The notes below the pieces were generated by a model. That model did not search any database and was not told the origin of the DNA. It saw only the letters and a list, made by a program, of their open reading frames with translations. Below are positions 2,303 to 14,170 of a stretch of DNA of 64,000 bases, piece after piece. Position 1 is the stretch's first letter. The number at the start of each line of letters is the position of its first letter. Position numbers and translations under genes: made by a program. Source of the stretch: the human T2T-CHM13v2.0 reference genome, Homo sapiens; NCBI RefSeq assembly GCF_009914755.1, contig NC_060933.1; one strand, 5' to 3'.

Positions 2303-3329
2303 GTATGAGGAAACAGTGCCATGAAAGTGTGCTTGTCTTCTGTCAGTTGCAACTTGAAACTAAAAATTCATGGAAGCTTTCTGGAGTATGGGGAAGCTAT
2401 TTGAAAAGAAGAGGGAAATAAAACAGGCTGAAAGTAGGTAAAATGATGTGGTAGTCAGTTCTAGAGGAGAGGTAGATTGATAGTTGTTCTTTGTTTTCAA
2501 GGTGTACTTATATTCTTTCGAGAATCTGGGAAGGTGGTGCCTGATACAACATTAACTATAGGTATTTAGCAGTGGGAAGATACACATTTATTTTTCATTC
2601 ACTGAAAAAGTCAGTACCAGATTCTAAGAGACAGTTTAGCAATCATTGAGAGTATGGTGAAGAGTGAGAGTCTGAGACCAGATTGCCTGGAGTTGACTCT
2701 GAGCTGTACCACTTCCTAGCTGGCTGACCTTGTGTTATCCTTCCTTTGCCTGTTTTCTTGTCTGTAAAATGTAATTAGAGTACCTGCTACATTAGATTTT
2801 TATGCATATAAAATAAGAGTCCCTGTTAAGGGCTAACACTTTGCATTTAATATAGTAAATAGTCAATAAATGGGAGGCATTCATAGCTAATATTGGGCTA
2901 GATAATATAATGGTGCATAACATAGATATTATCCTTGCTCTTATGGAGCTGACAAAATGAGTATTATATACCAAAATCTCATAGTAATGTTATATATCTG
3001 TTAGACATCAGAAGTTTACAGGTTTTGATCTACGTCAAGATTTTGCTTTTTTGAAAATCAGACATGGGGATGTGATATTAAAATGTTTTACATTTTGTAA
3101 AATGCTTTACATTTGTATGGCTTGCAAAACCACATCTATTGCTTATTTGATTTTGAGGCTGAGGTTTATTTTAGAGAGGCTGATTTTTTTTTTTGAGTCA
3201 GAATAATAGGAACATTCATAGTGAGTTGTTGATGAAGTGTCATTTCTGAGGCTGCCTGAGGTTCTGGTACTTAATATTGCTGGCAGGAAGTGATTTTTGT
3301 TTTAGCACTGCCTTGCATCATGCATTCCA

Positions 3330-6300
3330 AAGGCATTTATTCACTCAATATATAAATATTTGTTGAGTATTTGTTATTTGCCAGACACTATCCTTTACAC
3401 TGAAGACAGCCCCTAGACTTTAGTTTGTAGGGTAGCACTGACAAGGGAATAGACTGTTTAGAGTGGGGTATGTGCTGTTGACAGGGATAAGCACATACTT
3501 ATGGGAAGCACATAGCACACACCCCAGTGTGGACTTTATCCAGAGGCAATGAGGAGTTAGTGGATAGTCTTAAGTAGGAGACTAACATGCTCTGACTTGT
3601 GTTTGGAGACTATAGAAAAGCAAGGATTATAAACAAGAGTCCAGCTAGCAGACTTTTTTCTTTTCTCCTTCTTACTCTCTTTCGCTATAACTGCATCTCT
3701 CCAAAGGTGGGGATCTGAGGCATGTATCCACTGATCCCCGCTCCAATTGGTTGAAGGTTGCCATTGAAAGCAGTCCCTCCTGTGCATTTTGAGATTGCTG
3801 TTAGGAGCCAGCTGTGATTGCGGGACAGAAAAACTGAGTCTCCAAAGTGTGCTTGAAGTGGGAACAATGGCAGTGTAAATGGAGCTGTCCACCACAGCTG
3901 TGCTGAAATCTGGCAGGCTGACAGGACTTAGCACAGAGTTTTTGCTATAGGAGGCCTTTGCAGTAATCTTAATGAGAAATCATGGTGGCTTGGACCACTG
4001 TGGAGGTAGCATTGATAAGATCTGCTGATGGATTGGATAACTCACATGAAAGATAGGAGGGAGGATCATCCCAGGATTTTGAAAGTAATGGAATTTTTAC
4101 TTACTGAGCTAGAGAAGTGTATGAGAGGAGCAGATTTTTGGGAGTCATGGAGGATGAATTGAGTTTGGTTTGGTTTGGGACATATAAGTTTGAGATACTT
4201 ATTTGACCTCTGAATGGATAGGTAGTTAATAAGCTGGATACTAGAGAGAGGTCTGGGCTAAAGCTGTATATTTGGAATCGTCATTTTGTAAGTTGTGTTT
4301 ACATCTATGAGACTACAGACTCCTTTAATGAATAAGCATAAAGAGGTCTGCTGGGGCACTACAATATTTTCATGTCAAGGAATGAGAAAGGACTAATCAA
4401 AGATACAAACAAAGAGGGACCAATGAGGTAAGAGGATAGGAAGAGAGAATGGGTTCCCAGAAGCTCAATGAAGAAAGTATTTCAAGAAGGAGCTGATTAG
4501 GTGCTGCTGATGTGTTCTCATTCAGGTTTCAGTTGGAACAAGGGGAGTAAAGGGAGGACTGAGGTGTTATATTTAATAATAGTTCACTGGAGATACCAAA
4601 ACACCTTTGTTGGTGAAATAGTGGGGATGGCACCCTGTTTTCAGTGAGCTTAAGAGAATATGAGGGGAGAGGAATTAGGAAAAAGAGAGTAGAGACAATG
4701 CTTTATAAAGGAGTATCGCTGTAAAGTAGATGACTATATAATGACTGATCATGGAATTTAAGTTCAGTAAAGAAGGAGGTGAGAGAAGTGAAAGGTATAG
4801 GACCAATGGATTGTAGATCCTGGAGAGGTTAAAGAATTTTTGGAGTAAGGAAACTGGAGAGAGTGAGCTGGAAAAATAGTGGTAGTTGTGAAGAATGAGG
4901 TGTTTGAAATTGAGCTTATAGAGGACATGTAGGTACAAGTAAGACTAAATGTGGGAGTTGGTGGCTGAAGGAGGTAGAAGACAAGATCATTGGTGAAGAG
5001 GAGGTCAGTGACTTGATGATTCAAGTATAGGAAAGGTTATCTGTATGGGTATTGAAATCATTAAGAATGATGACAGGAAAAGTATTGGAGAGTGATAATA
5101 AGGTAGGTGCTAAGTCTTTGTGAAATGTGAGGAAACGACGTGGGCATTTACAGATGAATTCAACAGAGCATGGCGGCAGGTGGTATAGGCTAATGGCATG
5201 AGCTGCAGAGGTAGGAGGTTTTAGGGAGGAAGGTGGGGTAATGGCCTGGAAGTGGCAATGGAAAATAAGGAGGATATTCATCCCTCTCTGGCTTCAAGCG
5301 GTGTGGAAGAGAAACAGCCACCACTAGAGAAGCCTGCAGGGAAACAGTTTCTCATCCAAGTTTCAGTTAGAGCAAGAAGGGAAAGGCAATGTTCAGAGAA
5401 GAGTTTGAGGATATAGTTTATTAATAGTGTTAATAAACTGGTACAGTGGGAAAACTGTTGACTACTTTGGCATATTAGGAATGTTTTAATTAAAGTGGAA
5501 AAGAGAAAAATGAAACAAAAATTGGTGGTGTAATAAACAATTGTCACTTTAAAATAATGATTTCATTAATTCCTCAGAAAAGTAAGACTATTTTTCCACA
5601 TGCTGGTTCTTTGCTTGTTATATCCTCCAATCCCACCTCCCACCAACCCCTCCCTGGTTTGTCCTAGGGAAGGAGCTGGAGAGAGAAAAATATTGAGAGG
5701 GATGTGAAATTACTAATGGAGTGAGGGTTTTGTAGAGACAGAAGAGAACAGGATCCTGAGCACAAGCTGAGGTTTTAAGAATGTGTGCATAATTGTGTTA
5801 ATGGGTCAAAGAGATGGGGAATTGTTTTCCATCTGATGGCTTCTATTTTCTCATTAAAATAGGAAGTAAAGCCATCTGTTTTGTATGATGTAAAAGGGGG
5901 CAGGGTTTGGTAGAGGTTGATGTTGCCTTGCTGGAGAATGGGAAATAGCTCACTTGATAAAGAAATATTTCTGGGCAAATTATAAAATCTGTTTAGGCTA
6001 AGAATTCATTTTGTAAAGGCACCGGTTTCGGTGGTTTGATGAACTTCTCTAGAAGTCTCAGCATACTGGGTACAGGAATGGAATAGCCAGATAACTGGAT
6101 TAATTCAGATTGGGGTTTGTTGACAGAGATAGAATAAAAGGATTAAGGGCAGAGAACCAAGGAGGCTGTTAGGCAGGTGTTTGAAGGAATGTACTATATA
6201 GCATATGATTAAGATATGGAAGGTAGCAGAGATAGAAGGAGACCGAAAAGGAGAAAGAAAAGAATTCAACATTCTGGAGATCTTGATGAGGTAAAGGGAT

Positions 6301-6700
6301 TGGTATATTGGGTTAAGGGCATGAGATACCTGGAAAGACGTGGTGTTTTTCAGGGAATGGGAAGTTGGAATATAAGATTTCAGATGTGGTACAGTTCCAG
6401 ATAATGACAAAAGTCTGAGATGTGTCTTTTGAAGTGCATGGCTGAAGCACAGTGGAGGAGATAATGTTTGGAGTGAAGGAACTGGAAAAACTGACAGCCT
6501 AGATGCTAGAGGATTAGATGGTTTGTCCACATGTATGGTGAAGTCACCAGATATATTGGCAGGAACTGGGATAGACAGGGACCCAGGTGCTGAAGTCTTT
6601 AATGAAGGAAGGATGGTGCTTACGAGATAGATGACAGTGTTGATTGGAGTCGAGGGTGATCTAGCTGGATGGTGGCCTTAAAGCAGCATTACTTTGTAGA
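3330..6700 (-). mobile_element. Long fragmented LINE-2 (L2)
   Basis: L2 3'-end-like sequence near 3335-3390; purine-rich + strand; - strand ORF remnants LLALTETW and VIILNDFNTH resemble APE endonuclease motifs. Confidence 0.7.
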
Positions 6701-6951
6701 TGTTTATGTGACTAGAACAGCGAGATGGGTTGAGGTTCTGGTGTATTTGTGTGTATTATTCTTTCCTCACACCATCATATACCTGTTGTTTATCTCTTCT
6801 GCTTCTACTTCTTAATTACTTGTAAGATTTTTTAAAAGTCAATAGCTTTATTCATAGAAAATAACTAATGAATAATTGTGACCTTGTTGAGTTTAACGGC
6901 TCATTTTTCTTATTTCTTTGTGGAGACTAATACGATTGGTTTACTGGGCAG

Positions 6952-7119
6952 GAGGAACTAGACATTAGAACACTGCAAACCAAAAATCGCAAGCTGGCAG
7001 AAATGTTGGATCAGCGGCAGGCCATTGAAGATGAACTTCGTGAGCACATTGAAAAACTGGAACGACGACAGGCCACTGATGATGCCTCACTGTTGATTGT
7101 CAACCGATACTGGAGTCAG
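6952..7119 (+). CDS. RNF20: RNF20 exon 3 (168 nt), EELDIRTLQ...NRYWSQ
   Basis: CAG/GT flanks; in frame with exon 2. Confidence 0.97.
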
Positions 7120-7238
7120 GTAGCTAACTTGTTTATTTGTTCAGATTTTTATTTGACCAATTTAGTTCTCCTTACTGTTCTCTTCATTTCCAAAGTTGTG
7201 TCCTTTGTTTCTTCATAATTGTACCTACCCTTCTCCAG

Positions 7239-7386
7239 TTTGATGAAAACATCCGTATCATCCTTAAACGTTATGATCTGGAGCAGGGCTTGGGAGACCT
7301 ACTCACAGAACGAAAAGCCCTTGTTGTGCCTGAACCAGAACCAGACTCTGATAGCAATCAGGAGCGTAAAGATGACCGAGAGAGAG
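7239..7386 (+). CDS. RNF20: RNF20 exon 4 (148 nt), FDENIRII...DDRER; GC donor
   Basis: CAG acceptor; donor GAG|GCAAGT keeps frame with exon 5. Confidence 0.95.
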
Positions 7387-7541
7387 GCAAGTGTTCGTGA
7401 TGGATTCTATCACTGCATGCTATCTGGGTTTTTAAAGTAGAGCTCTGCTTTGAGGCTTTCCATTTGAGGGAAAAAAAATGGATTTTGTTATTTCCAGTTT
7501 ATAATTTTGGGGGGCTTCTTTTTTTCCCCCTGTGTCCTCAG

Positions 7542-7724
7542 GGGAAGGGCAAGAGCCAGCTTTCTCTTTCCTTGCTACTTTGGCCAGCAGTTCCAGTGAA
7601 GAGATGGAGTCTCAGCTGCAGGAACGTGTGGAGTCTTCCCGCCGAGCCGTGTCCCAGATTGTGACTGTTTATGATAAATTGCAAGAAAAAGTGGAGCTCT
7701 TATCCCGGAAGCTAAACAGTGGAG
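7542..7724 (+). CDS. RNF20: RNF20 exon 5 (183 nt), GEGQEPAF...KLNSG
   Basis: CAG / GTGAGG flanks; frame continuous. Confidence 0.96.
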
Positions 7725-7813
7725 GTGAGGCAAGACCCTGGAGGCCGGGAGTAGTGGAGGAGGAATAAGAATTCATTTTTGCATGCTAATTTGTAGTTTG
7801 CAAGCTTACATAT

Positions 7814-8116
7814 TTATTTTTATTTATTTATTATTTACTTTTTAAGAGATAAGGTTTCACTGTGTCACCCAGGCTGGAACACAGTGGCACCATCATAGCC
7901 CATTGAATCCTCGAACTCAAGCAATCTTTCTGCCTCAGCTTCCGAATAGCTAGGACTATAGGCACGTACTACCACACCTGGCTAATATTTTAACCTTTTT
8001 GTAGAGAGGAAGTCTTGCTATGTTGCCCAGGCTGGTCTCAAACTTGGCCTCAAGAGATCCTCTCTTCTGGCCTCCCAAAGTGTTAGGATTACAGGCATGA
8101 GCCACTGTGCCTGGAC
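7814..8116 (-). mobile_element. Alu (AluJ-like, diverged)
   Basis: (ATTT)-rich tail followed by antisense Alu body. Confidence 0.9.
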
Positions 8117-9726
8117 TATGTATTTTAATTAAATTTTTAGAAATTCTAACCTTCAGTGTTACTGGTAATGTCTTCATTATGGCATATTAATCTTTTATCA
8201 GTGCTTCTCATTTTGAGCCACATGACAGTCCTTTAATAAGCTGAGGAAAGAGTTTATCAGCTCTATACTGATATACTCTATTAATGACAGTTTTGTAAAT
8301 AGCAGAATTAACTTTATTATTTAATAAACAGCTCTAATATCTGGATCTGTTTATCATGTATGTAGGCTATTGATTTATAGTGATAATACTTTATTTTAAA
8401 TAACAACTATATTATTTAATTATTAGTTACAGAATTTTGACTTGAAAAAGTTAATTTTTACTTAACTTATTTTTCATTATCGCTAATGTTTTTAAAAAGA
8501 GTTGGTGCAGGTTTTAGAGTTGACAGATGATCTGTATGGTTAAAAGGATTATTAGAAAATATTCTATGGATGAAAGAGTATTTGAAATAAAATAATTATT
8601 TGGGATAATTGTGTTACTCAGAGTTAATGCAAAAATTTAAATTTGTACAGTAAAGTATTTGTGTAGCTAGGTTACATCTTTAGTCATTTGTGGCATAAAT
8701 ACCTTGCTCAAATGCAAAAAAAATGCCTTGATTTCATGTTTTCAATAATAATCATGGTCTAGTTGTAATATCTTAATTTCCCTGCTTATCATTAAGATGT
8801 TTAACCTTTCATTTCTGAAGGAAATAAGTTGAATGTAATGGAGGTTGAACCATTGGATGAGCATATAAGAATTGTATTATTCTGTAATTTTGCTTTTAAG
8901 GGTAATTGGGCTAAGTTGTCAACAGAATTAAGCAGCTTGTAGAAGGCCTGTGAAAATTTGGTCACGGGTTTCTTTTGCTTTTCCATTAGATTATGCATTT
9001 CTGTATTTTATTATAAGGAAAACAGATACTTGTTTAAAAATATACAAGTCAGAAATACAAATAAGTAGACTACAAAAGTTTCCCCATTCTCATTTCTCAA
9101 AAGATAACCATTCTAAACAATGTGTTTTATGTCCTCTCAGACTTTTGTACTTTTGTATTAATATCTTACATCTACTTGCATGTCCCCAGCTAAACTGTGT
9201 CTTGGTTCAGTAGTTTGGCTCACTCTTCTTTGTTTCTCTAGTTTCTAGCACTGCATCTGGCATCTAGCAGATGTTTAGTCAATGGGGAATGAATGGATGT
9301 GAACCTCCCTGTCACCTAATATAAAATAATGGTGCTTTGTGTGTGCACATATGCTTCTTTCTCCTTGGGCTCTAATTGAATAGTTAGAAGGTATTGTTAA
9401 ATTTTAGTAATATGGTAATTAATATGCCATGTGCATAGACTATGTTAAACTTGATTTCATAAATGAATATCAAGTGAAACAATTGTTTTATTTAAAAAGG
9501 GAATAAAATGAGTAGTATATCAAACGACTTTAAAATTACTATTTAATGGCATGCATTTTAAGGTCGGGTTTAAGTTAAAAAGTAGAAACATTACAAATAG
9601 CCATGCCATTATTTGTAACACAAAAGGCAATTGCCATTGGTAAGCTGAACTTTCTAAGAGATAAAGATGTATAAAGTATGAATTATAGCATCAGTTGTAA
9701 CTTGTTTGAAAGTTCATCCCCCTGAC

Positions 9727-9938
9727 TTAGACTGAAAATTGACATTCCTCAAATTCCTAGGACATCATCAATACAGTAGTTTCTACTTCCCCATTCCCTG
9801 TGGAATTTCTACCACGCCATTCCTCAATAACACTATACAGTCTTTTATATTTAGGGTAATTCATTATTTGGAGGTTTGGAGTTGTGTTGTGTTTTACAAA
9901 ATCCCCTATGATATGATAGGCCTTCTAGAGTAAGGTAA
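9727..9938 (+). repeat. Left arm of a perfect 212-bp inverted repeat (partner 11738-11949)
   Basis: Exact reverse complement of 11738-11949; identical 64-aa ORFs reported at 9739-9933(+) and 11743-11937(-). Confidence 0.97.
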
Positions 9939-9987
9939 GGCCTTCTAGAGCAAGTATAGGCCTTATAGAGTAAGGTCTATAAATTCA

Positions 9988-10415
9988 TCTAACCCTGCCA
10001 GAGCGGCACTGTCTAACCTGCCACGGCAGTACTGTCTAACCGTGCCAGGGCGGCACTGTCTAACCCTTCCAGGGCGGCACTGTCTAACCCTTCCAGGGCG
10101 GCACTGTCTAACCCTTCCAGGGCGGCACTGTCTAACCCTGCCAGGGCGGCACTGTCTAACCTGCCAGAGCGGCACTGTCTAACCTGCCAGAGCGGCACTG
10201 TCTAACTCTGCCAGGGCGGCACTGTCTAACCTGCCAAGGCAGCACTGTCTAACCCTGCCAGGGTGGCACTGTCTAACCCTGCCACTGCAGTACTGTCCAA
10301 CCCTGCCAGAGTGGAACTGTCTAACCTGCCAGGGCGGCACTGTCTAACCTGCCAGAGCGGCACTGTCTAACCCTGCCAGGGCGGCACTGTCTAACCTGCC
10401 AGGGCAGTACTGTCT
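9988..10415. repeat. Minisatellite, 18 units of 23-24 bp, consensus TCTAACC(C)TGCCAGGGCGGCACTG
   Basis: Units counted directly; gives the periodic ORFs RVRQCRPG and GLDSAALE. Confidence 0.97.
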
Positions 10416-11073
10416 GTTTGTTTGGTCTTTGATTCAAAAGAATTGCATTTATGGGCTTGTTTATAAATTCACTAAACATTTATTGAATTTTATTGTATTC
10501 TAGCCCTGTCCTCAGTGCTTAGGATATTGAGAGGACTAAAATTCAGTCTCTACTTCTTAACTCAGGTTATGAATCAGAATAACCTTGGGAGTTTTCTGAG
10601 CATATTCTTATTTTTGGCTTTGCCCATGGAGGTTCTTATTAAGTAGGTATGAGATAGGTCCTAGGGAAATGTCTATTTTAAAAGTTCCACAAGTGATTCT
10701 GATGGGCAAGCCTAGCTTGAAAACCATGAAAACCACCATATGACCAACCTGTTCTGTATTGATACTAAGAGTAATGCCAAGAGGTGATATGAGAAAGCAT
10801 ATTTTTCTTCCTGATAACTCTCTTTGATGGGTGGTATATATCCTGAGAGTATCTGGTTTCATTTAATTACATTTGGATTTCAGCTATAGTATTTGCAACT
10901 CTAATTTTAAACATACGAACTTGGTGTAATAAGTTCTATGGATTTACCTACCTGCTTTGTAAATAGTAGTGTACATTTTGGTTTTTAAGCTTCAGAAGTG
11001 CCCCTAACATAGTATTTCAGAATATATGATATGAGAATATGTGATAAGAGCATATGATTCTTGCTTTGTTATT

Positions 11074-11164
11074 CAGGCTGGTCTTGAACTCCTGGCCTCA
11101 AGTGATCGGCCTGCCTTGGCTTCCCAAGGTGCTAGGATTACAGCGTGAGCTGCTATACCTGGCC
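11074..11164 (-). mobile_element. Partial Alu left monomer/FLAM
   Basis: Reverse complement reads GGCCAGG...TGTAATCCTAGCACCTTGGGAAG...GAGTTCAAGACCAGCCTG. Confidence 0.85.
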
Positions 11165-11196
11165 AAGGATACACAGTTTTAAAATTTGACACTATA

Positions 11197-11494
11197 GGCC
11201 AGGCACGGTGGCTCACACCTGTAATCCCAGCACTTTGGGAGGCTGAGGTGGGTGGATCACCTGAGGTCAGGAGTTTGAGACCAGCCTGTCCGACATGGTG
11301 AAACCCCATCTCTACTAAAAATACAAAAATCATCCGGGTGTGGTGGCATGTGCCTGTAATCCCAGCTACTCTGGAGGCTGAGGCAGGAGAATCGGCTCGA
11401 ACCCTGGAGGCAGAGGTTGCAGTGAGCCGAGATCGCGCCACTGTACTCCAGCCTGGGCGATAGAGCAAGACTCCGTCTTAAAAAAAAAAAAAAA
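11197..11494 (+). mobile_element. Alu (AluSx-like)
   Basis: Full dimer with A tail; degenerate TSD aaaat(tt)gacact. Confidence 0.95.
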
Positions 11495-11538
11495 TGACAC
11501 TCTAGATGCTAAATTAAAGTATAGTTCTTCTTCCCCAG

Positions 11539-11657
11539 ATAATCTGATAGTGGAGGAAGCAGTGCAGGAGCTGAACTCTTTCCTCGCACAGGAGAATATG
11601 AGGCTACAGGAATTGACAGATCTTCTTCAGGAAAAGCATCGCACCATGTCTCAGGAG
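11539..11657 (+). CDS. RNF20: RNF20 exon 6 (119 nt), [10 protein letters not shown]...TMSQE
   Basis: ttccccag acceptor, GTACTT donor; cumulative CDS 747 nt, in frame. Confidence 0.96.
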
Positions 11658-11737
11658 GTACTTAACCAAAAAGGAGAGATGGCTGTGTCTAGTGGGCTGT
11701 GGCAGATGTTGACTTACAATTCTGAGCACCTCAAAGA

Positions 11738-11949
11738 TTACCTTACTCTAGAAGGCCTATCATATCATAGGGGATTTTGTAAAACACAACACAACTCCAA
11801 ACCTCCAAATAATGAATTACCCTAAATATAAAAGACTGTATAGTGTTATTGAGGAATGGCGTGGTAGAAATTCCACAGGGAATGGGGAAGTAGAAACTAC
11901 TGTATTGATGATGTCCTAGGAATTTGAGGAATGTCAATTTTCAGTCTAA
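11738..11949 (-). repeat. Right arm of the 212-bp inverted repeat
   Basis: Exact reverse complement of 9727-9938; begins 81 nt after the end of exon 6. Confidence 0.97.
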
Positions 11950-12559
11950 ACTTGGGTGCAAATAATGCCATGATTAAACCATGCCAAGATTTGGACATTT
12001 ATTTATTTACACAAAATGATCAAGATAAAGTGATGATAGGCCTTAAATGACTTTTCTGATACTTCTGATGATCATTTTGATTTAGTTCAAAATATATTCT
12101 ACTGGAATTTGCCCCACCTTAGTTTGGCCACTGAATTCTTATGCTAATTAGTAATTTAGTAGTTGCCATTTACTTAGTGCCTAGAATTTAAGCACTTTAT
12201 GAATGTTATCTCTAATGGCAAAACAACTCCCATTTTATTGCCAAAGAAACAAATTCAAAGAGGTTAGTGATTATTCTGAGGGCACATAGCTAGAAAGTGA
12301 TTGAGCTGTGTTGTGACTGTAGGTCTGTTTGACTTCAAAGCTCTTGTTCTTCATATGCCTTTGTTTACTAAACCCCAGTGTTAAGGTCCATGCTGGCCTG
12401 GTTGCATGAATATCATCTGGGGAATTTATTAATTCATATGGATTATCCTGGACCTTCAAAGGGGTTAGAATGTAGTAGCCCTTATAAATAAACTGGAGTC
12501 TAGTAAGAAAATAGAATATTTTTATCATGTTTTAAGACATTGACTAGGTGCTACCAAGA

Positions 12560-12965
12560 TGGAGAGGTCTTCCTTTTCTAGCCCTTTGACAAATCTCAGA
12601 TAGTATTACTAACCTGGAGGGCAGTTGTTTGCTAAACTGTGATGTCCTTGTTGGCTCTCATGGCTGGCTGTTGATGCTGCCTGTCAGCTGGGTTAATTGT
12701 CTACTGGGATACCTGCAGTTTGCCTCTCCATCATGGTAGTCTCAGGATGGTTGGAATTTTTACATGTTGGCTGACTTCTTCCAGTGAGCATCCCAAGATC
12801 ACCAGGTAGAACCTTCATGGCCTTTCTGATATAGCCTCAAAATTGTGTAGTGACATTTCCATTGGGTCTCTAAAGTTGACCCAGATTCAAGAGGAGGGAA
12901 CAAAGATCCCACCTCTTGTTCAGAGGACTTTCAAAGGATTTTTGTGTCATGTTTTAAAACCTAGC
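12560..12965 (-). mobile_element. Old MaLR LTR (MLT1-like) fragment
   Basis: Motifs typical of MLT1 (ccagattcaaggagg, atggccttttctga..tagcctca). Confidence 0.5.
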
Positions 12966-13591
12966 ACAAAGGGTATATATAGATTAATGTGAACTTGTAA
13001 TAGTTTAGTAGTTAAAATACTAAATAGTGTTAGCTGGTGTATAGCTCCTAAATAGAGTATCTGACTTTAGATTATAGTATAATCTATACTGTATTGTATC
13101 TGACTCTAGATTGCTCTGGGGTGAGCTTAAAAAAGAGTATGGAAGTTTTCTTTTGTTGTGAATGAATGGATTACCTTTTGTGGGACTGTGGAGAGAAATT
13201 TGGGGGTAAAAATGGTTTTTTTGAAAAAATATTTATCTTACAAAACAAAAGATACTATTTATTATCTCTTAAAAAATTACAAAATTTTTATGAGTTTGTG
13301 GTCTGTCCAGAGAAATGGTGCTTTTCAGAGGTAGAAAAATTGTTGAATCTTAGGTGGTCTTTTCTTTGTGTGAGAGTTCTTATAGACTTTAGACTTAAAG
13401 TTTGCATGATTATAACTGACACAGAATTGTTGGAGGAATCCGTGATTTCATTTTTGTAATCATGCATTGGGAAGAGGGTGAAGCATCTTCTATTTGCCTC
13501 TTTTCTATAATTACTCATAAGCAAGGGTTAATATTATGGAATTTGGTCTTTTTTTGCTATATGTTTCTGAATGTTTGTCTTTGGGATGTAG

Positions 13592-13738
13592 TTCTCCAAG
13601 TTGCAGAGTAAAGTGGAGACAGCCGAATCACGAGTGTCTGTCCTGGAGTCCATGATTGATGACCTGCAGTGGGATATTGACAAAATTCGAAAGAGGGAAC
13701 AGCGACTCAACCGACACTTAGCAGAAGTCCTAGAACGG
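13592..13738 (+). CDS. RNF20: RNF20 exon 7 (147 nt), FSKLQSKV...EVLER
   Basis: TAG / GTCAGT flanks. Confidence 0.96.
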
Positions 13739-13908
13739 GTCAGTGCTGTTTTATGGCTTGGAGACTAGAATCATTTTAAGGAGTGTTCTCAGGAAGACTC
13801 ACCTTGGGGCATGGTATTTGAGGAAAAAATCTCATCCTTTGAAGGTACATTGGTTATAGACTGAAATCTTAAGAGTCTCTCACTAAAGAATCTTTGTGTT
13901 CTCTGTAG

Positions 13909-13986
13909 GTGAATTCCAAAGGTTATAAGGTGTATGGAGCGGGGAGCAGTCTGTATGGCGGCACAATCACTATCAATGCTCGGAAG
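13909..13986 (+). CDS. RNF20: RNF20 exon 8 (78 nt), VNSKGYKV...INARK
   Basis: TAG / GTAAAA flanks. Confidence 0.96.
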
Positions 13987-14170
13987 GTAAAATCAGTGAC
14001 TCAGGACATGTTTTGGACTGTATGTCAGCTTTCATGCTTAGGTACTTAGGACTGTGTTCACAAGTGACATCATGGGGTTTTGCTGGAATAGCGAATCAGT
14101 GAAGAAAGGAAGCTTAGAAATGATTTAAGAAGAATACTTATTTATTCTCTATTTTTCTGCTTCTCTGCAG

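What the first reader, a model, noticed from the sequence alone, without database searches (positions are those of the whole stretch)
9727..11949. Perfect 212-bp non-transposon inverted repeat brackets the frame-shifting RNF20 exon 6
Seen: 9727-9938 is the exact reverse complement of 11738-11949 (no mismatch found by eye; coordinates sum to 21676), and neither arm looks like a known TE. The 1799-nt loop contains exon 6 (119 nt, not a multiple of 3), and the right arm begins only 81 nt after the exon end. Established: intronic complementary sequences promote exon looping/skipping, back-splicing and ADAR editing, and inverted repeats can mediate inversions. Inference: the pre-mRNA can form a 212-bp perfect duplex, longer and cleaner than any Alu-Alu pair here. 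This could tune RNF20 dosage through exon-6 skipping and NMD, generate circRNA, or predispose to a 1.8-kb inversion that would null the gene. Perfect identity implies a very recent, possibly human/hominid-specific, origin or ongoing gene conversion.
Basis: partly seen in the sequence, partly recalled or inferred. Interest (0 to 1): 0.85.

Follow-up and report, generated by a model that had tools for sequence, protein, structure and literature searches.

The report
Perfect inverted repeat around RNF20 exon 6
Two identical 212-base stretches in opposite orientation sit in the introns on either side of exon 6 of the human RNF20 gene; they are real, unique in the genome and could pair in the RNA, but nothing available here shows that they change how the gene is spliced.

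Summary
Window 9727-9938 is the exact reverse complement of 11738-11949: 212 of 212 bases, with 1799 bases between the arms. Homology stops dead at all four arm ends. These are the only two copies found in T2T-CHM13. There is no target-site duplication and no Rfam family in the arms. The loop holds the 119-nt exon 6. Skipping it gives a stop codon after six out-of-frame codons in exon 7.

In a 2.9-kb RNA fold all 212 pairs form in register, worth about -327 kcal/mol. None of the 35 other inverted pairs in 264 kb has a perfect run above 39 nt.

- The repeat is not "longer than any Alu pair". One Alu pair spans 320 nt at 84% identity and has a more negative duplex energy.
- Zero differences only bounds the age at about 12-14 million years, so it need not be human-specific.

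Best reading: a young local inverted duplication, most likely from a replication template switch. It creates an intronic double-stranded RNA of a known kind. Exon skipping, circular RNA, editing and inversion are all untested. No annotated transcript skips exon 6, and the known circRNF20 comes from exons 3-5.

The parts
9727..9938 (+). Left arm of the inverted repeat, in RNF20 intron 5. It lies 2002 nt after exon 5 and 1600 nt before exon 6.
   Evidence: exact reverse complement of 11738-11949; no other copy in the genome.
11738..11949 (+). Right arm of the inverted repeat, in RNF20 intron 6. It lies 80 nt after the exon-6 donor site and 1642 nt before exon 7.
9939..11737 (+). The 1799-nt spacer (the loop in the RNA). 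It holds the tandem arrays, an Alu pair and exon 6 with both of its splice sites.
11539..11657 (+). RNF20 exon 6, 119 nt, coding nt 629-747. Its donor site GAG|gtactt lacks the consensus bases at +4 and +5 (consensus recalled).
   Evidence: Annotation supplied with the finding; (frame, stop codon after skipping, splice-site letters).
9916..9976 (+). Three-unit tandem array of about 20 nt. Unit 1 is the inner end of the left arm; units 2 and 3 lie just outside it. The arm ends 2 nt into unit 2.
   Evidence: TRF: period 20, 3.0 copies, 83% matches; 4 differences in 42 columns against 0 in 212 for the arms, Fisher p = 6.6e-4.
9988..10415 (+). 24-nt minisatellite, 18 units, 50 nt from the left arm. 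It is probably context rather than part of the repeat.
   Evidence: only one other locus in the genome (chr13).
11067..11515 (+). Antisense Alu fragment (11067-11150) followed by a full sense Alu (11194-11515) inside the loop. These are competing pairing partners for other Alus in introns 1 and 5.

Best explanation
This is a genuine, single-locus inverted duplication of 212 bases of unique intronic sequence. It is not a mobile element. One arm was copied in reverse orientation to a site 1.8 kb away, on the other side of exon 6. The most likely cause is a DNA-replication or repair template switch, in which a nascent strand jumps to the opposite strand nearby and jumps back. The event happened within roughly the last 12-14 million years, unless gene conversion has kept the arms identical. 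Both arms lie in the same RNF20 pre-mRNA. The right arm emerges only about 200 nt after the exon-6 acceptor, so intron 5 is almost certainly still unspliced when a partner becomes available. A 212-bp perfect RNA duplex can therefore form with exon 6 looped out. I infer that in most transcripts this duplex is an ordinary nuclear, intron-confined double-stranded RNA. It would be bound and probably edited by ADAR, unwound by helicases, and discarded with the introns. Its effect on splicing would be small: at most a low level of exon-6 skipping, followed by decay of that product. Shown: existence, uniqueness, sharp edges, absence of transposon hallmarks, thermodynamic pairing and the frameshift consequence. 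Inferred: the mechanism of origin, which arm is the copy, the age, formation of the duplex in cells, editing and near-neutrality.
For: The repeat is exact. Only two copies exist in the genome. Homology ends abruptly: Smith-Waterman scores of the flanks are no better than shuffles (inner flanks 133 of 300 shuffles reach the observed score, outer flanks 71 of 300). The arms have no target-site duplication and no A-tail (flank letters). No Rfam family lies in the arms. All 212 pairs form in register in the minimum-energy fold of 9400-12300, which is 327 kcal/mol better than with the left arm held single-stranded; each arm alone folds to only -34 and -38.5 kcal/mol. Of 35 other inverted pairs in 264 kb (27 in 20 sampled 10-kb stretches, 8 in the window), the longest perfect run is 39 nt. 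A complex junction, the 3-unit 20-nt array that starts within 2 nt of the arm end, is the kind of stutter seen at template-switch junctions (that link is recalled knowledge). Template switching as a source of inverted copies and RNA hairpins in great-ape genomes is published (PMC7954356, abstract start and one passage; PMC8794818, search listing only). For near-neutrality: all 3 RefSeq RNF20 transcripts include exon 6, and long nearly perfect duplexes are far less depleted from pre-mRNA than from mRNA (PMC7006430, passages).
Against: No outgroup or second human assembly could be consulted. The ancestral state, the direction of copying and the age are therefore all inferred. The published short-range template switches were sought within 100 nt of the mutation; this event is 212 nt long and 1.8 kb away, outside that studied range. 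No microhomology is evident at the junctions. The tandem 20-nt units are significantly more diverged than the arms (p = 6.6e-4). That means either an error-prone event or an array older than the duplication, and I could not decide between them. The idea that the neighbouring minisatellite stalls forks through hairpins has no support: its single-stranded DNA fold is no better than shuffles (z = +1.84). Near-neutrality is an argument from silence. RefSeq does not list decay-targeted isoforms systematically, exon 6 has a weak-looking donor site, and no expression, editing or junction data were available.
Confidence: 0.6

Rival explanations
1. The duplex is a working regulator. By looping out exon 6 it promotes exon-6 skipping. 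The frameshifted product is destroyed by nonsense-mediated decay, so the strength of pairing sets the RNF20 dose, and ADAR editing or helicases can tune that pairing.
For: The full duplex is predicted to form. Exon 6 is 119 nt, and skipping it gives a stop after six out-of-frame codons, 127 nt before the exon 7-8 junction. The exon-6 donor site departs from consensus at +4 and +5 (consensus recalled). Inverted intronic Alus have been shown experimentally to shift a flanking exon from constitutive to alternative (PMC2533698, abstract).
Against: No annotated transcript skips exon 6 (0 of 3). A search for RNF20 + 'exon 6' + skipping found 1 paper, whose title concerns mutations in the MRE11-RAD50-NBS1 complex (listing only). 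With the stem closed the path from exon 5 to exon 7 is still about 3.6 kb (2002 + 1642 nt), not shorter than the normal exon 5-6 and 6-7 steps. Both exon-6 splice sites stay in the open loop.
Confidence: 0.1
2. The repeat drives back-splicing of exon 6 into a 119-nt circular RNA.
For: Complementary sequences of only 30-40 nt in flanking introns are sufficient for circularisation (PMC4201285, abstract). Here there are 212 perfect pairs bracketing one exon.
Against: The same paper reports that ZKSCAN1 exons of 400 nt or less circularised poorly or not at all, and that a more stable hairpin can inhibit circular RNA production. The circRNF20 described in print, hsa_circ_0087784, is 499 nt from exons 3-5 (PMC7039970, retracted, passages). 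That matches 168+148+183 nt in the window and does not use this repeat. The left arm is 1600 nt from the acceptor.
Confidence: 0.06
3. The inverted repeat is old (primate-wide or older), and its arms are kept identical by gene conversion between them, as happens in large palindromes.
For: Perfect identity by itself cannot tell youth from conversion. The adjoining tandem 20-nt units are much more diverged than the arms (4 of 42 against 0 of 212, p = 6.6e-4), as expected if only the arms are being homogenised.
Against: There is no trace of decayed homology beyond either arm end. Arms of 212 bp are near the lower limit for efficient homologous recombination in mammalian cells (recalled). Crossovers between the arms would invert exon 6 and destroy an essential gene.
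Confidence: 0.15
4. One arm is an assembly artefact of T2T-CHM13, or a rare variant private to that genome.
For: Reads and other assemblies were not available, so this could not be tested directly.
Against: The whole structure is 2.2 kb, far shorter than the long reads behind this assembly (recalled), and it has unique flanks. The RNF20 gene spans 29,512 bases here (604-30115). My unverified recollection of its span in GRCh38 is about 29,492 bases. That leaves no room for a missing 212-base arm.
Confidence: 0.04
5. The arms are the terminal inverted repeats of a DNA transposon.
For: The geometry fits in form only: two inverted terminal blocks.
Against: No other copy in 3.1 Gb. No target-site duplication. 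The 'interior' contains a coding exon of the host gene in the correct orientation, plus Alus.
Confidence: 0.01

Closest known systems
Intronic reverse-complementary matches (usually inverted Alu pairs) flanking exons, which promote back-splicing or exon skipping
   Same: The two complementary blocks lie in the introns on either side of an exon, in one pre-mRNA, and are predicted to pair and loop the exon out (PMC4201285; PMC2533698).
   Different: The arms are unique sequence, not Alu. The pairing is perfect over 212 bp, whereas the other 35 inverted pairs examined have perfect runs of 39 nt or less. No circular or skipped product is known for this exon.
Template-switch mutations that create inverted copies and hairpins (short-range template switching in great apes; larger replication-based rearrangements of the FoSTeS/MMBIR type)
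   Same: An inverted copy of nearby sequence with sharp ends and no transposition hallmarks, plus a stuttered junction.
   Different: The published short-range events were sought within 100 nt (PMC7954356). This one is 212 nt long and copied across 1.8 kb, an intermediate scale. The ancestral state was not seen.
Long, highly paired endogenous double-stranded RNAs catalogued genome-wide (dsRNAscan; Barak et al. 2020)
   Same: It falls in the rare 'highly paired' class. Only 31,017 of 5,134,754 predicted dsRNAs are more than 96% paired, and more than 90% of predictions involve repeats (PMC11838218). It is intronic, like nearly all genic ones.
   Different: It is below the 300-bp length those studies use for candidate MDA5 ligands. 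It is non-repetitive and lies within a gene, whereas 88% of the long, highly paired set are intergenic and most are inverted LINEs. Whether this locus is in their tables could not be checked, because supplements are closed.
Large near-identical palindromes of the X and Y chromosomes kept alike by gene conversion (recalled)
   Same: Inverted arms of near-perfect identity around a unique spacer.
   Different: Those arms are kilobases to megabases long and carry genes. Here the arms are 212 bp of intron.

Membership tests
Exon-flanking intronic complementary pair (RCM) | Reverse-complementary sequences in the upstream and downstream introns of the same transcript | tested here: met
   Arms in introns 5 and 6 of RNF20, same strand, 212 of 212 complementary.
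Exon-flanking intronic complementary pair (RCM) | Pairing is thermodynamically favoured over local alternatives | tested here: met
   All 212 pairs are in the minimum-energy fold of a 2.9-kb context, a 327 kcal/mol gain. Each arm alone folds to -34 / -38.5 kcal/mol.
Exon-flanking intronic complementary pair (RCM) | A back-spliced or exon-skipped product of the bracketed exon is observed | not testable with these tools
   No RNA-seq or circRNA database available. 0 of 3 RefSeq transcripts skip exon 6. The known circRNF20 is exons 3-5.
Template-switch inverted duplication | Inverted copy of nearby unique sequence with abrupt ends | tested here: met
Template-switch inverted duplication | Microhomology or complex (stuttered, error-prone) junctions | tested here: inconclusive
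   No microhomology at the four junctions. A diverged 3-unit 20-nt array begins within 2 nt of the inner end of the left arm.
Template-switch inverted duplication | Ancestral allele lacks one arm | not testable with these tools
DNA transposon / MITE with terminal inverted repeats | Multiple dispersed copies in the genome | tested here: not met
   Only the two arms match in 3.1 Gb.
DNA transposon / MITE with terminal inverted repeats | Target-site duplication flanking the outer ends | tested here: not met
   The outer flanks differ; only a 2-base match is shared.
ADAR-edited dsRNA (editing-enriched region) | Clusters of A-to-G mismatches in RNA on both arms | not testable with these tools
   No reads or editing tables available. 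Literature searches for RNF20 with editing terms found 0 papers.
Candidate MDA5 ligand (long, highly paired dsRNA) | More than 300 bp and more than 96% paired, present in a cytoplasmic transcript | tested here: not met
   212 bp, and the two arms lie in different introns. Criterion taken from PMC11838218.
Known RNA family (Rfam) | Match to a curated covariance model | tested here: not met
   At E <= 1 no Rfam match overlaps either arm: 9 of the 10 matches lie inside the loop at or next to its Alu sequence, and the tenth (E = 0.25) lies just upstream of the left arm.

The most novel reading that the evidence does not exclude
A hominid- or human-specific, perfectly paired 212-bp intronic RNA duplex acts as a tunable switch on an essential chromatin gene. 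When the duplex holds, exon 6 with its weak donor site is skipped and the message decays. When ADAR editing or helicases open it, the full message is made. RNF20 dose, and hence histone H2B ubiquitination, would thereby be coupled to the cell's double-stranded-RNA-handling state. At the DNA level, the same repeat would make rare germline or somatic inversions of exon 6 a recurrent way of inactivating this tumour-suppressor candidate.
Probability: 0.06. Interest if true: 0.7.

Novelty: new member of a known kind. Interest (0 to 1): 0.35.

Why it matters
Perfect duplexes of this length made from unique, non-repeat sequence inside an expressed, essential gene are rare. In one genome-wide catalogue only 0.6% of predicted dsRNAs are more than 96% paired, and over 90% of predictions involve repeats. 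This one gives a clean natural test case, free of the cross-pairing ambiguity of Alus, for three questions:
- How much does a strong exon-bracketing duplex actually perturb splicing in vivo?
- How heavily is such a duplex edited?
- How do such structures arise by template switching at the kilobase scale?

If one arm proves absent in other apes, it would also be a dated, lineage-specific structural change in RNF20. As things stand it is a well-defined curiosity with no demonstrated consequence.

Tried and rejected
- Transposon origin: rejected. Only two copies exist, there is no target-site duplication, and a host exon sits inside.
- Known RNA family in the arms: none found.
- Longer decayed repeat with a perfect core: rejected. 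The flanks align no better than shuffles, and blastn with 7-base words finds nothing beyond the arms.
- Minisatellite hairpins stalling replication next to the left arm: not supported (z = +1.84; 98 of 100 shuffles fold at least as well).
- Link between the chr13 copy of the minisatellite and the repeat: none. Only the array itself and Alu sequence match.
- Deciding which arm is the copy: the internal evidence points both ways. The arm end coincides with the tandem-unit boundary, but the units are older-looking than the arms. This is left open.
- Finding hg19 coordinates of RNF20 circRNAs or exons in papers, to compare intron lengths between assemblies: 10 papers held RNF20 plus a number starting 10430. 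None looked relevant from the listing, so I dropped it.
- Literature on this repeat:
  - RNF20 + 'inverted repeat' + intron: 3 papers, two general circRNA reviews and one review of histone marks and circRNAs in sperm (listing only).
  - RNF20 + A-to-I + dsRNA + intronic: 0 papers.
  - RNF20 + 'editing sites' + ADAR1 + intron: 0 papers.
  - RNF20 + 'exon 6' + skipping: 1 paper, whose title concerns an unrelated protein complex.
  - Two circRNF20 papers (PMC9135067, PMC12087435) gave no exon information in the passages seen.
- Supplementary tables were closed and may list this locus. This applies to dsRNAscan Table S5 and its web resource, to the tables of Barak et al., and to circRNA and editing databases.
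- A wider background scan was cut short. I asked for 20 stretches of 20 kb and received 10 kb each, so the background is 200 kb plus the 64-kb window, not the megabase scale I intended.
Full report
**1. The observation**

The repeat finder reports one inverted pair in 9000-12800: arms 9727-9938 and 11738-11949, 212 nt, 100% complementary, 1799 nt apart. A direct string comparison confirms exact reverse complementarity. Blastn of the region against the window gives E = 3e-108. Each arm has a single CpG and is A+T-rich: 136 of 212 bases.

The annotated exon 6 (11539-11657, 119 nt) lies in the spacer.
- Left arm: 2002 nt after exon 5 and 1600 nt before the exon-6 acceptor.
- Right arm: begins 80 nt past the exon-6 donor and ends 1642 nt before exon 7.

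**2. What the arms are**

A search of the whole T2T-CHM13 genome with one arm finds exactly two places, the two arms, both at 100%. Wider queries that include the flanks, run at E <= 10, add nothing that overlaps the arms.
- 9200-9990: 2 matches, itself and the other arm.
- 11658-12500: 3 matches, the third a 77% match of 12245-12340 to chr15, outside the arm.

Neither arm is in the masked-repeat list. Within 8000-14000 that list holds only two Alu-sized blocks, 7912-8149 and 11169-11503. It did not mask the local minisatellite either, so it is probably word-frequency based and cannot exclude an ancient, decayed repeat.

At E <= 1, no Rfam match overlaps either arm. Nine of the 10 matches lie inside the loop, at or next to its Alu sequence. 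The tenth, a nematode snoRNA model at 9656-9722 with E = 0.25, lies just upstream of the left arm.

The outer flanks carry no target-site duplication, and there is no A-tail. The 'interior' holds a host coding exon in the correct orientation. The structure is therefore not a transposon but a local inverted duplication of unique intronic sequence.

**3. Edges and neighbours**

Homology stops dead at all four ends. Blastn with 7-base words finds nothing beyond the arms. Smith-Waterman scores of the flanks are ordinary against shuffles:
- inner flanks: 133 of 300 shuffles reach the observed score;
- outer flanks: 71 of 300.

So this is not the well-preserved core of a longer decayed repeat.

The inner end of the left arm runs into a three-unit tandem array of about 20 nt (9916-9976; TRF period 20, 83% matches). 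Unit 1 is inside the arm and is mirrored perfectly in the right arm. Units 2 and 3 are outside, and the arm ends 2 nt into unit 2. Units 2 and 3 differ from unit 1 at 3 and 1 of 21 columns. That is 4 of 42, against 0 of 212 for the arms (Fisher p = 6.6e-4).

Fifty bases further on lies a 24-nt minisatellite of 18 units (9988-10415). Its unit occurs at only one other place in the genome, on chr13, with unrelated flanks.

**4. Which arm is the copy, and how old is it**

No other primate or human assembly was available, so neither question can be settled here.

Internal evidence on direction points both ways:
- The arm end coincides with the start of the tandem array. This fits a copy landing at the left site with a stuttered, error-prone junction.
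- The tandem units are more diverged than the arms. This fits an array that pre-dates the duplication, in which case the left arm would be the source and the right arm, 80 nt from the exon, the newcomer.

On age, zero differences in 212 nt gives a 95% upper bound of 14.1 My at 0.5e-9 per site per year, or 11.8 My at 0.6e-9. The probability of no difference is still 0.19-0.25 at 6.5 My and 0.02-0.04 at 15 My. The data therefore say 'great-ape age or younger, unless gene conversion is acting', not 'human-specific'.

I recall, without having checked it here, that RNF20 spans about 29,492 bases in GRCh38. It spans 29,512 here. If my memory is right, both arms are also in GRCh38.

**5. RNA pairing**

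In a minimum-energy fold of 9400-12300 (2901 nt) all 212 left-arm bases pair with the right arm in register. Forbidding the left arm from pairing costs 327 kcal/mol. Each arm alone folds to only -34.1 and -38.5 kcal/mol.

Within the RNF20 gene, blastn finds 7 inverted pairs at E <= 1e-10.
- The 212-bp repeat has by far the shortest spacer (1.8 kb) and the only perfect pairing.
- It is neither the longest nor, by nearest-neighbour energy, the most stable. An Alu pair (1643-1956 x 11197-11515) spans 320 aligned nt at 84% identity with -533 kcal/mol, against -389 kcal/mol, though it sits across 9.2 kb.
- Two further pairs also have more negative energies (-491 and -398 kcal/mol).

As a background, I scanned 20 stretches of 10 kb sampled from chr9:113.30-113.69 Mb and found 27 inverted pairs. 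Their longest perfect run is 31 nt, and the highest identity among the 22 pairs of 100 nt or more is 87.5%. The 8 other pairs in the window with spacers of 10 kb or less reach 39 nt. A 212-nt perfect run is thus more than five times the next best among 36 pairs in 264 kb.

**6. Consequences for the message**

The annotated coding exons translate to 975 residues with a single terminal stop. Exon 6 encodes coding nt 629-747. Removing it shifts the frame and gives a stop after six out-of-frame codons, ending at window 13611 in exon 7. That stop lies 127 nt before the next exon junction, and there are many junctions downstream. By the usual rule (recalled) this makes the product a target of nonsense-mediated decay.

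The exon-6 donor is GAG|gtactt. It lacks the consensus bases at +4 and +5 (consensus recalled), so the exon could be sensitive to perturbation.

Against any strong effect:
- All 3 RefSeq transcripts of RNF20 include exon 6.
- Both exon-6 splice sites sit in the open 1.8-kb loop.
- With the stem closed, the exon 5 to exon 7 path is still about 3.6 kb.

**7. Circular RNA**

The circRNF20 of the literature (hsa_circ_0087784) is described as a 499-nt circle of exons 3, 4 and 5 (PMC7039970, a retracted paper, passages seen). That equals 168+148+183 nt in this window. It does not involve exon 6 and is not bracketed by this repeat.

Liang and Wilusz showed that 30-40 nt of intronic complementarity is enough for circularisation. 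They also found that a more stable hairpin can inhibit it, and that ZKSCAN1 exons of 400 nt or less circularised poorly or not at all (PMC4201285, abstract and passages). A 119-nt single-exon circle is therefore possible but not favoured.

**8. Context in the dsRNA literature**

A genome-wide prediction (PMC11838218, preprint, passages) reports the following:
- 5,134,754 candidate dsRNAs were predicted, and over 90% involve repeats.
- Only 31,017 are more than 96% paired.
- Only 2,018 are both longer than 300 bp and more than 96% paired. Most of these are inverted LINEs, and 88% are intergenic.

Barak et al. (PMC7006430, passages) report that long nearly perfect duplexes are almost absent from mRNAs and depleted, more weakly, from pre-mRNAs. 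They also report that the few expressed ones are often heavily edited.

The RNF20 duplex belongs to the rare highly paired class. It is unusual in being non-repetitive and inside an expressed gene. However, it is under 300 bp, and its arms leave with two different introns, so it should not reach cytoplasmic sensors. Neither paper's main text mentions RNF20 (0 occurrences).

**9. Mechanism of origin**

Sharp ends, inverted orientation, closeness of the two copies, lack of transposition hallmarks and a stuttered junction all fit a template switch during replication or repair. Such switches are documented as a source of inverted copies and hairpins in great-ape genomes (PMC7954356, abstract start and one passage; PMC8794818, listing only). 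Those studies looked within 100 nt. This event, 212 nt across 1.8 kb, sits between that scale and the kilobase-to-megabase rearrangements.

I tested one specific idea, that the adjacent minisatellite forms hairpins that stall forks. It found no support (z = +1.84).

**10. DNA-level risk**

Recombination between the arms would invert exon 6 and inactivate the gene. From recalled knowledge, 212 bp of uninterrupted identity is near the lower limit for efficient homologous recombination in mammalian cells. Rare events are therefore conceivable, but nothing here measures them.

**11. Verdict**

The feature is real, sharply defined and unusual in quality. Its kind is known: an exon-bracketing intronic complementary pair, probably born by template switching.

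It is best described as a new member of a known kind and is of moderate interest. What would raise that interest most is evidence that one arm is missing in other apes, or that exon-6 skipping depends on the arms.

Noticed in passing
window 9988-10415; L003 2035-2252 (chr13:106039534-106039751): A 24-nt minisatellite of 18 units in RNF20 intron 5 has exactly one other home in the genome. That is an array of about 9 units on chr13, on the opposite strand, next to LINE-like sequence (identified by eye), with flanks that do not match. At up to 2 mismatches, all 13 unit matches found lie in these two loci: 9 on chr9 and 4 on chr13.
   Followed up: partly
window 7386-7392: RNF20 exon 4 ends at a GC rather than a GT donor site (GAG|gcaagt). 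It is the only non-GT donor among the 18 coding-exon donors listed.
   Followed up: no
window 11067-11515: An antisense Alu fragment abuts a full sense Alu inside intron 5. The Alu's A-tail ends 44 nt before the exon-6 acceptor. The junction of the two gives sub-threshold Rfam matches to Alu-derived microRNA families (mir-1972 at 41 bits against a gathering score of 90).
   Followed up: no
L022 7911-9997 (chr9:113667911-113669997): A stretch of about 2.1 kb that aligns to its own reverse complement at 76% identity turned up in the background scan. It may be low-complexity or palindromic sequence.
   Followed up: no
window 2303-11538: No inverted pair at E <= 1e-10 links intron 2 with intron 5, the introns flanking the published exon 3-5 circle circRNF20. 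The Alu in intron 5 (11194-11515) pairs instead with Alus in intron 1 (1643-1956) and within intron 5 itself (7826-8119).
   Followed up: no
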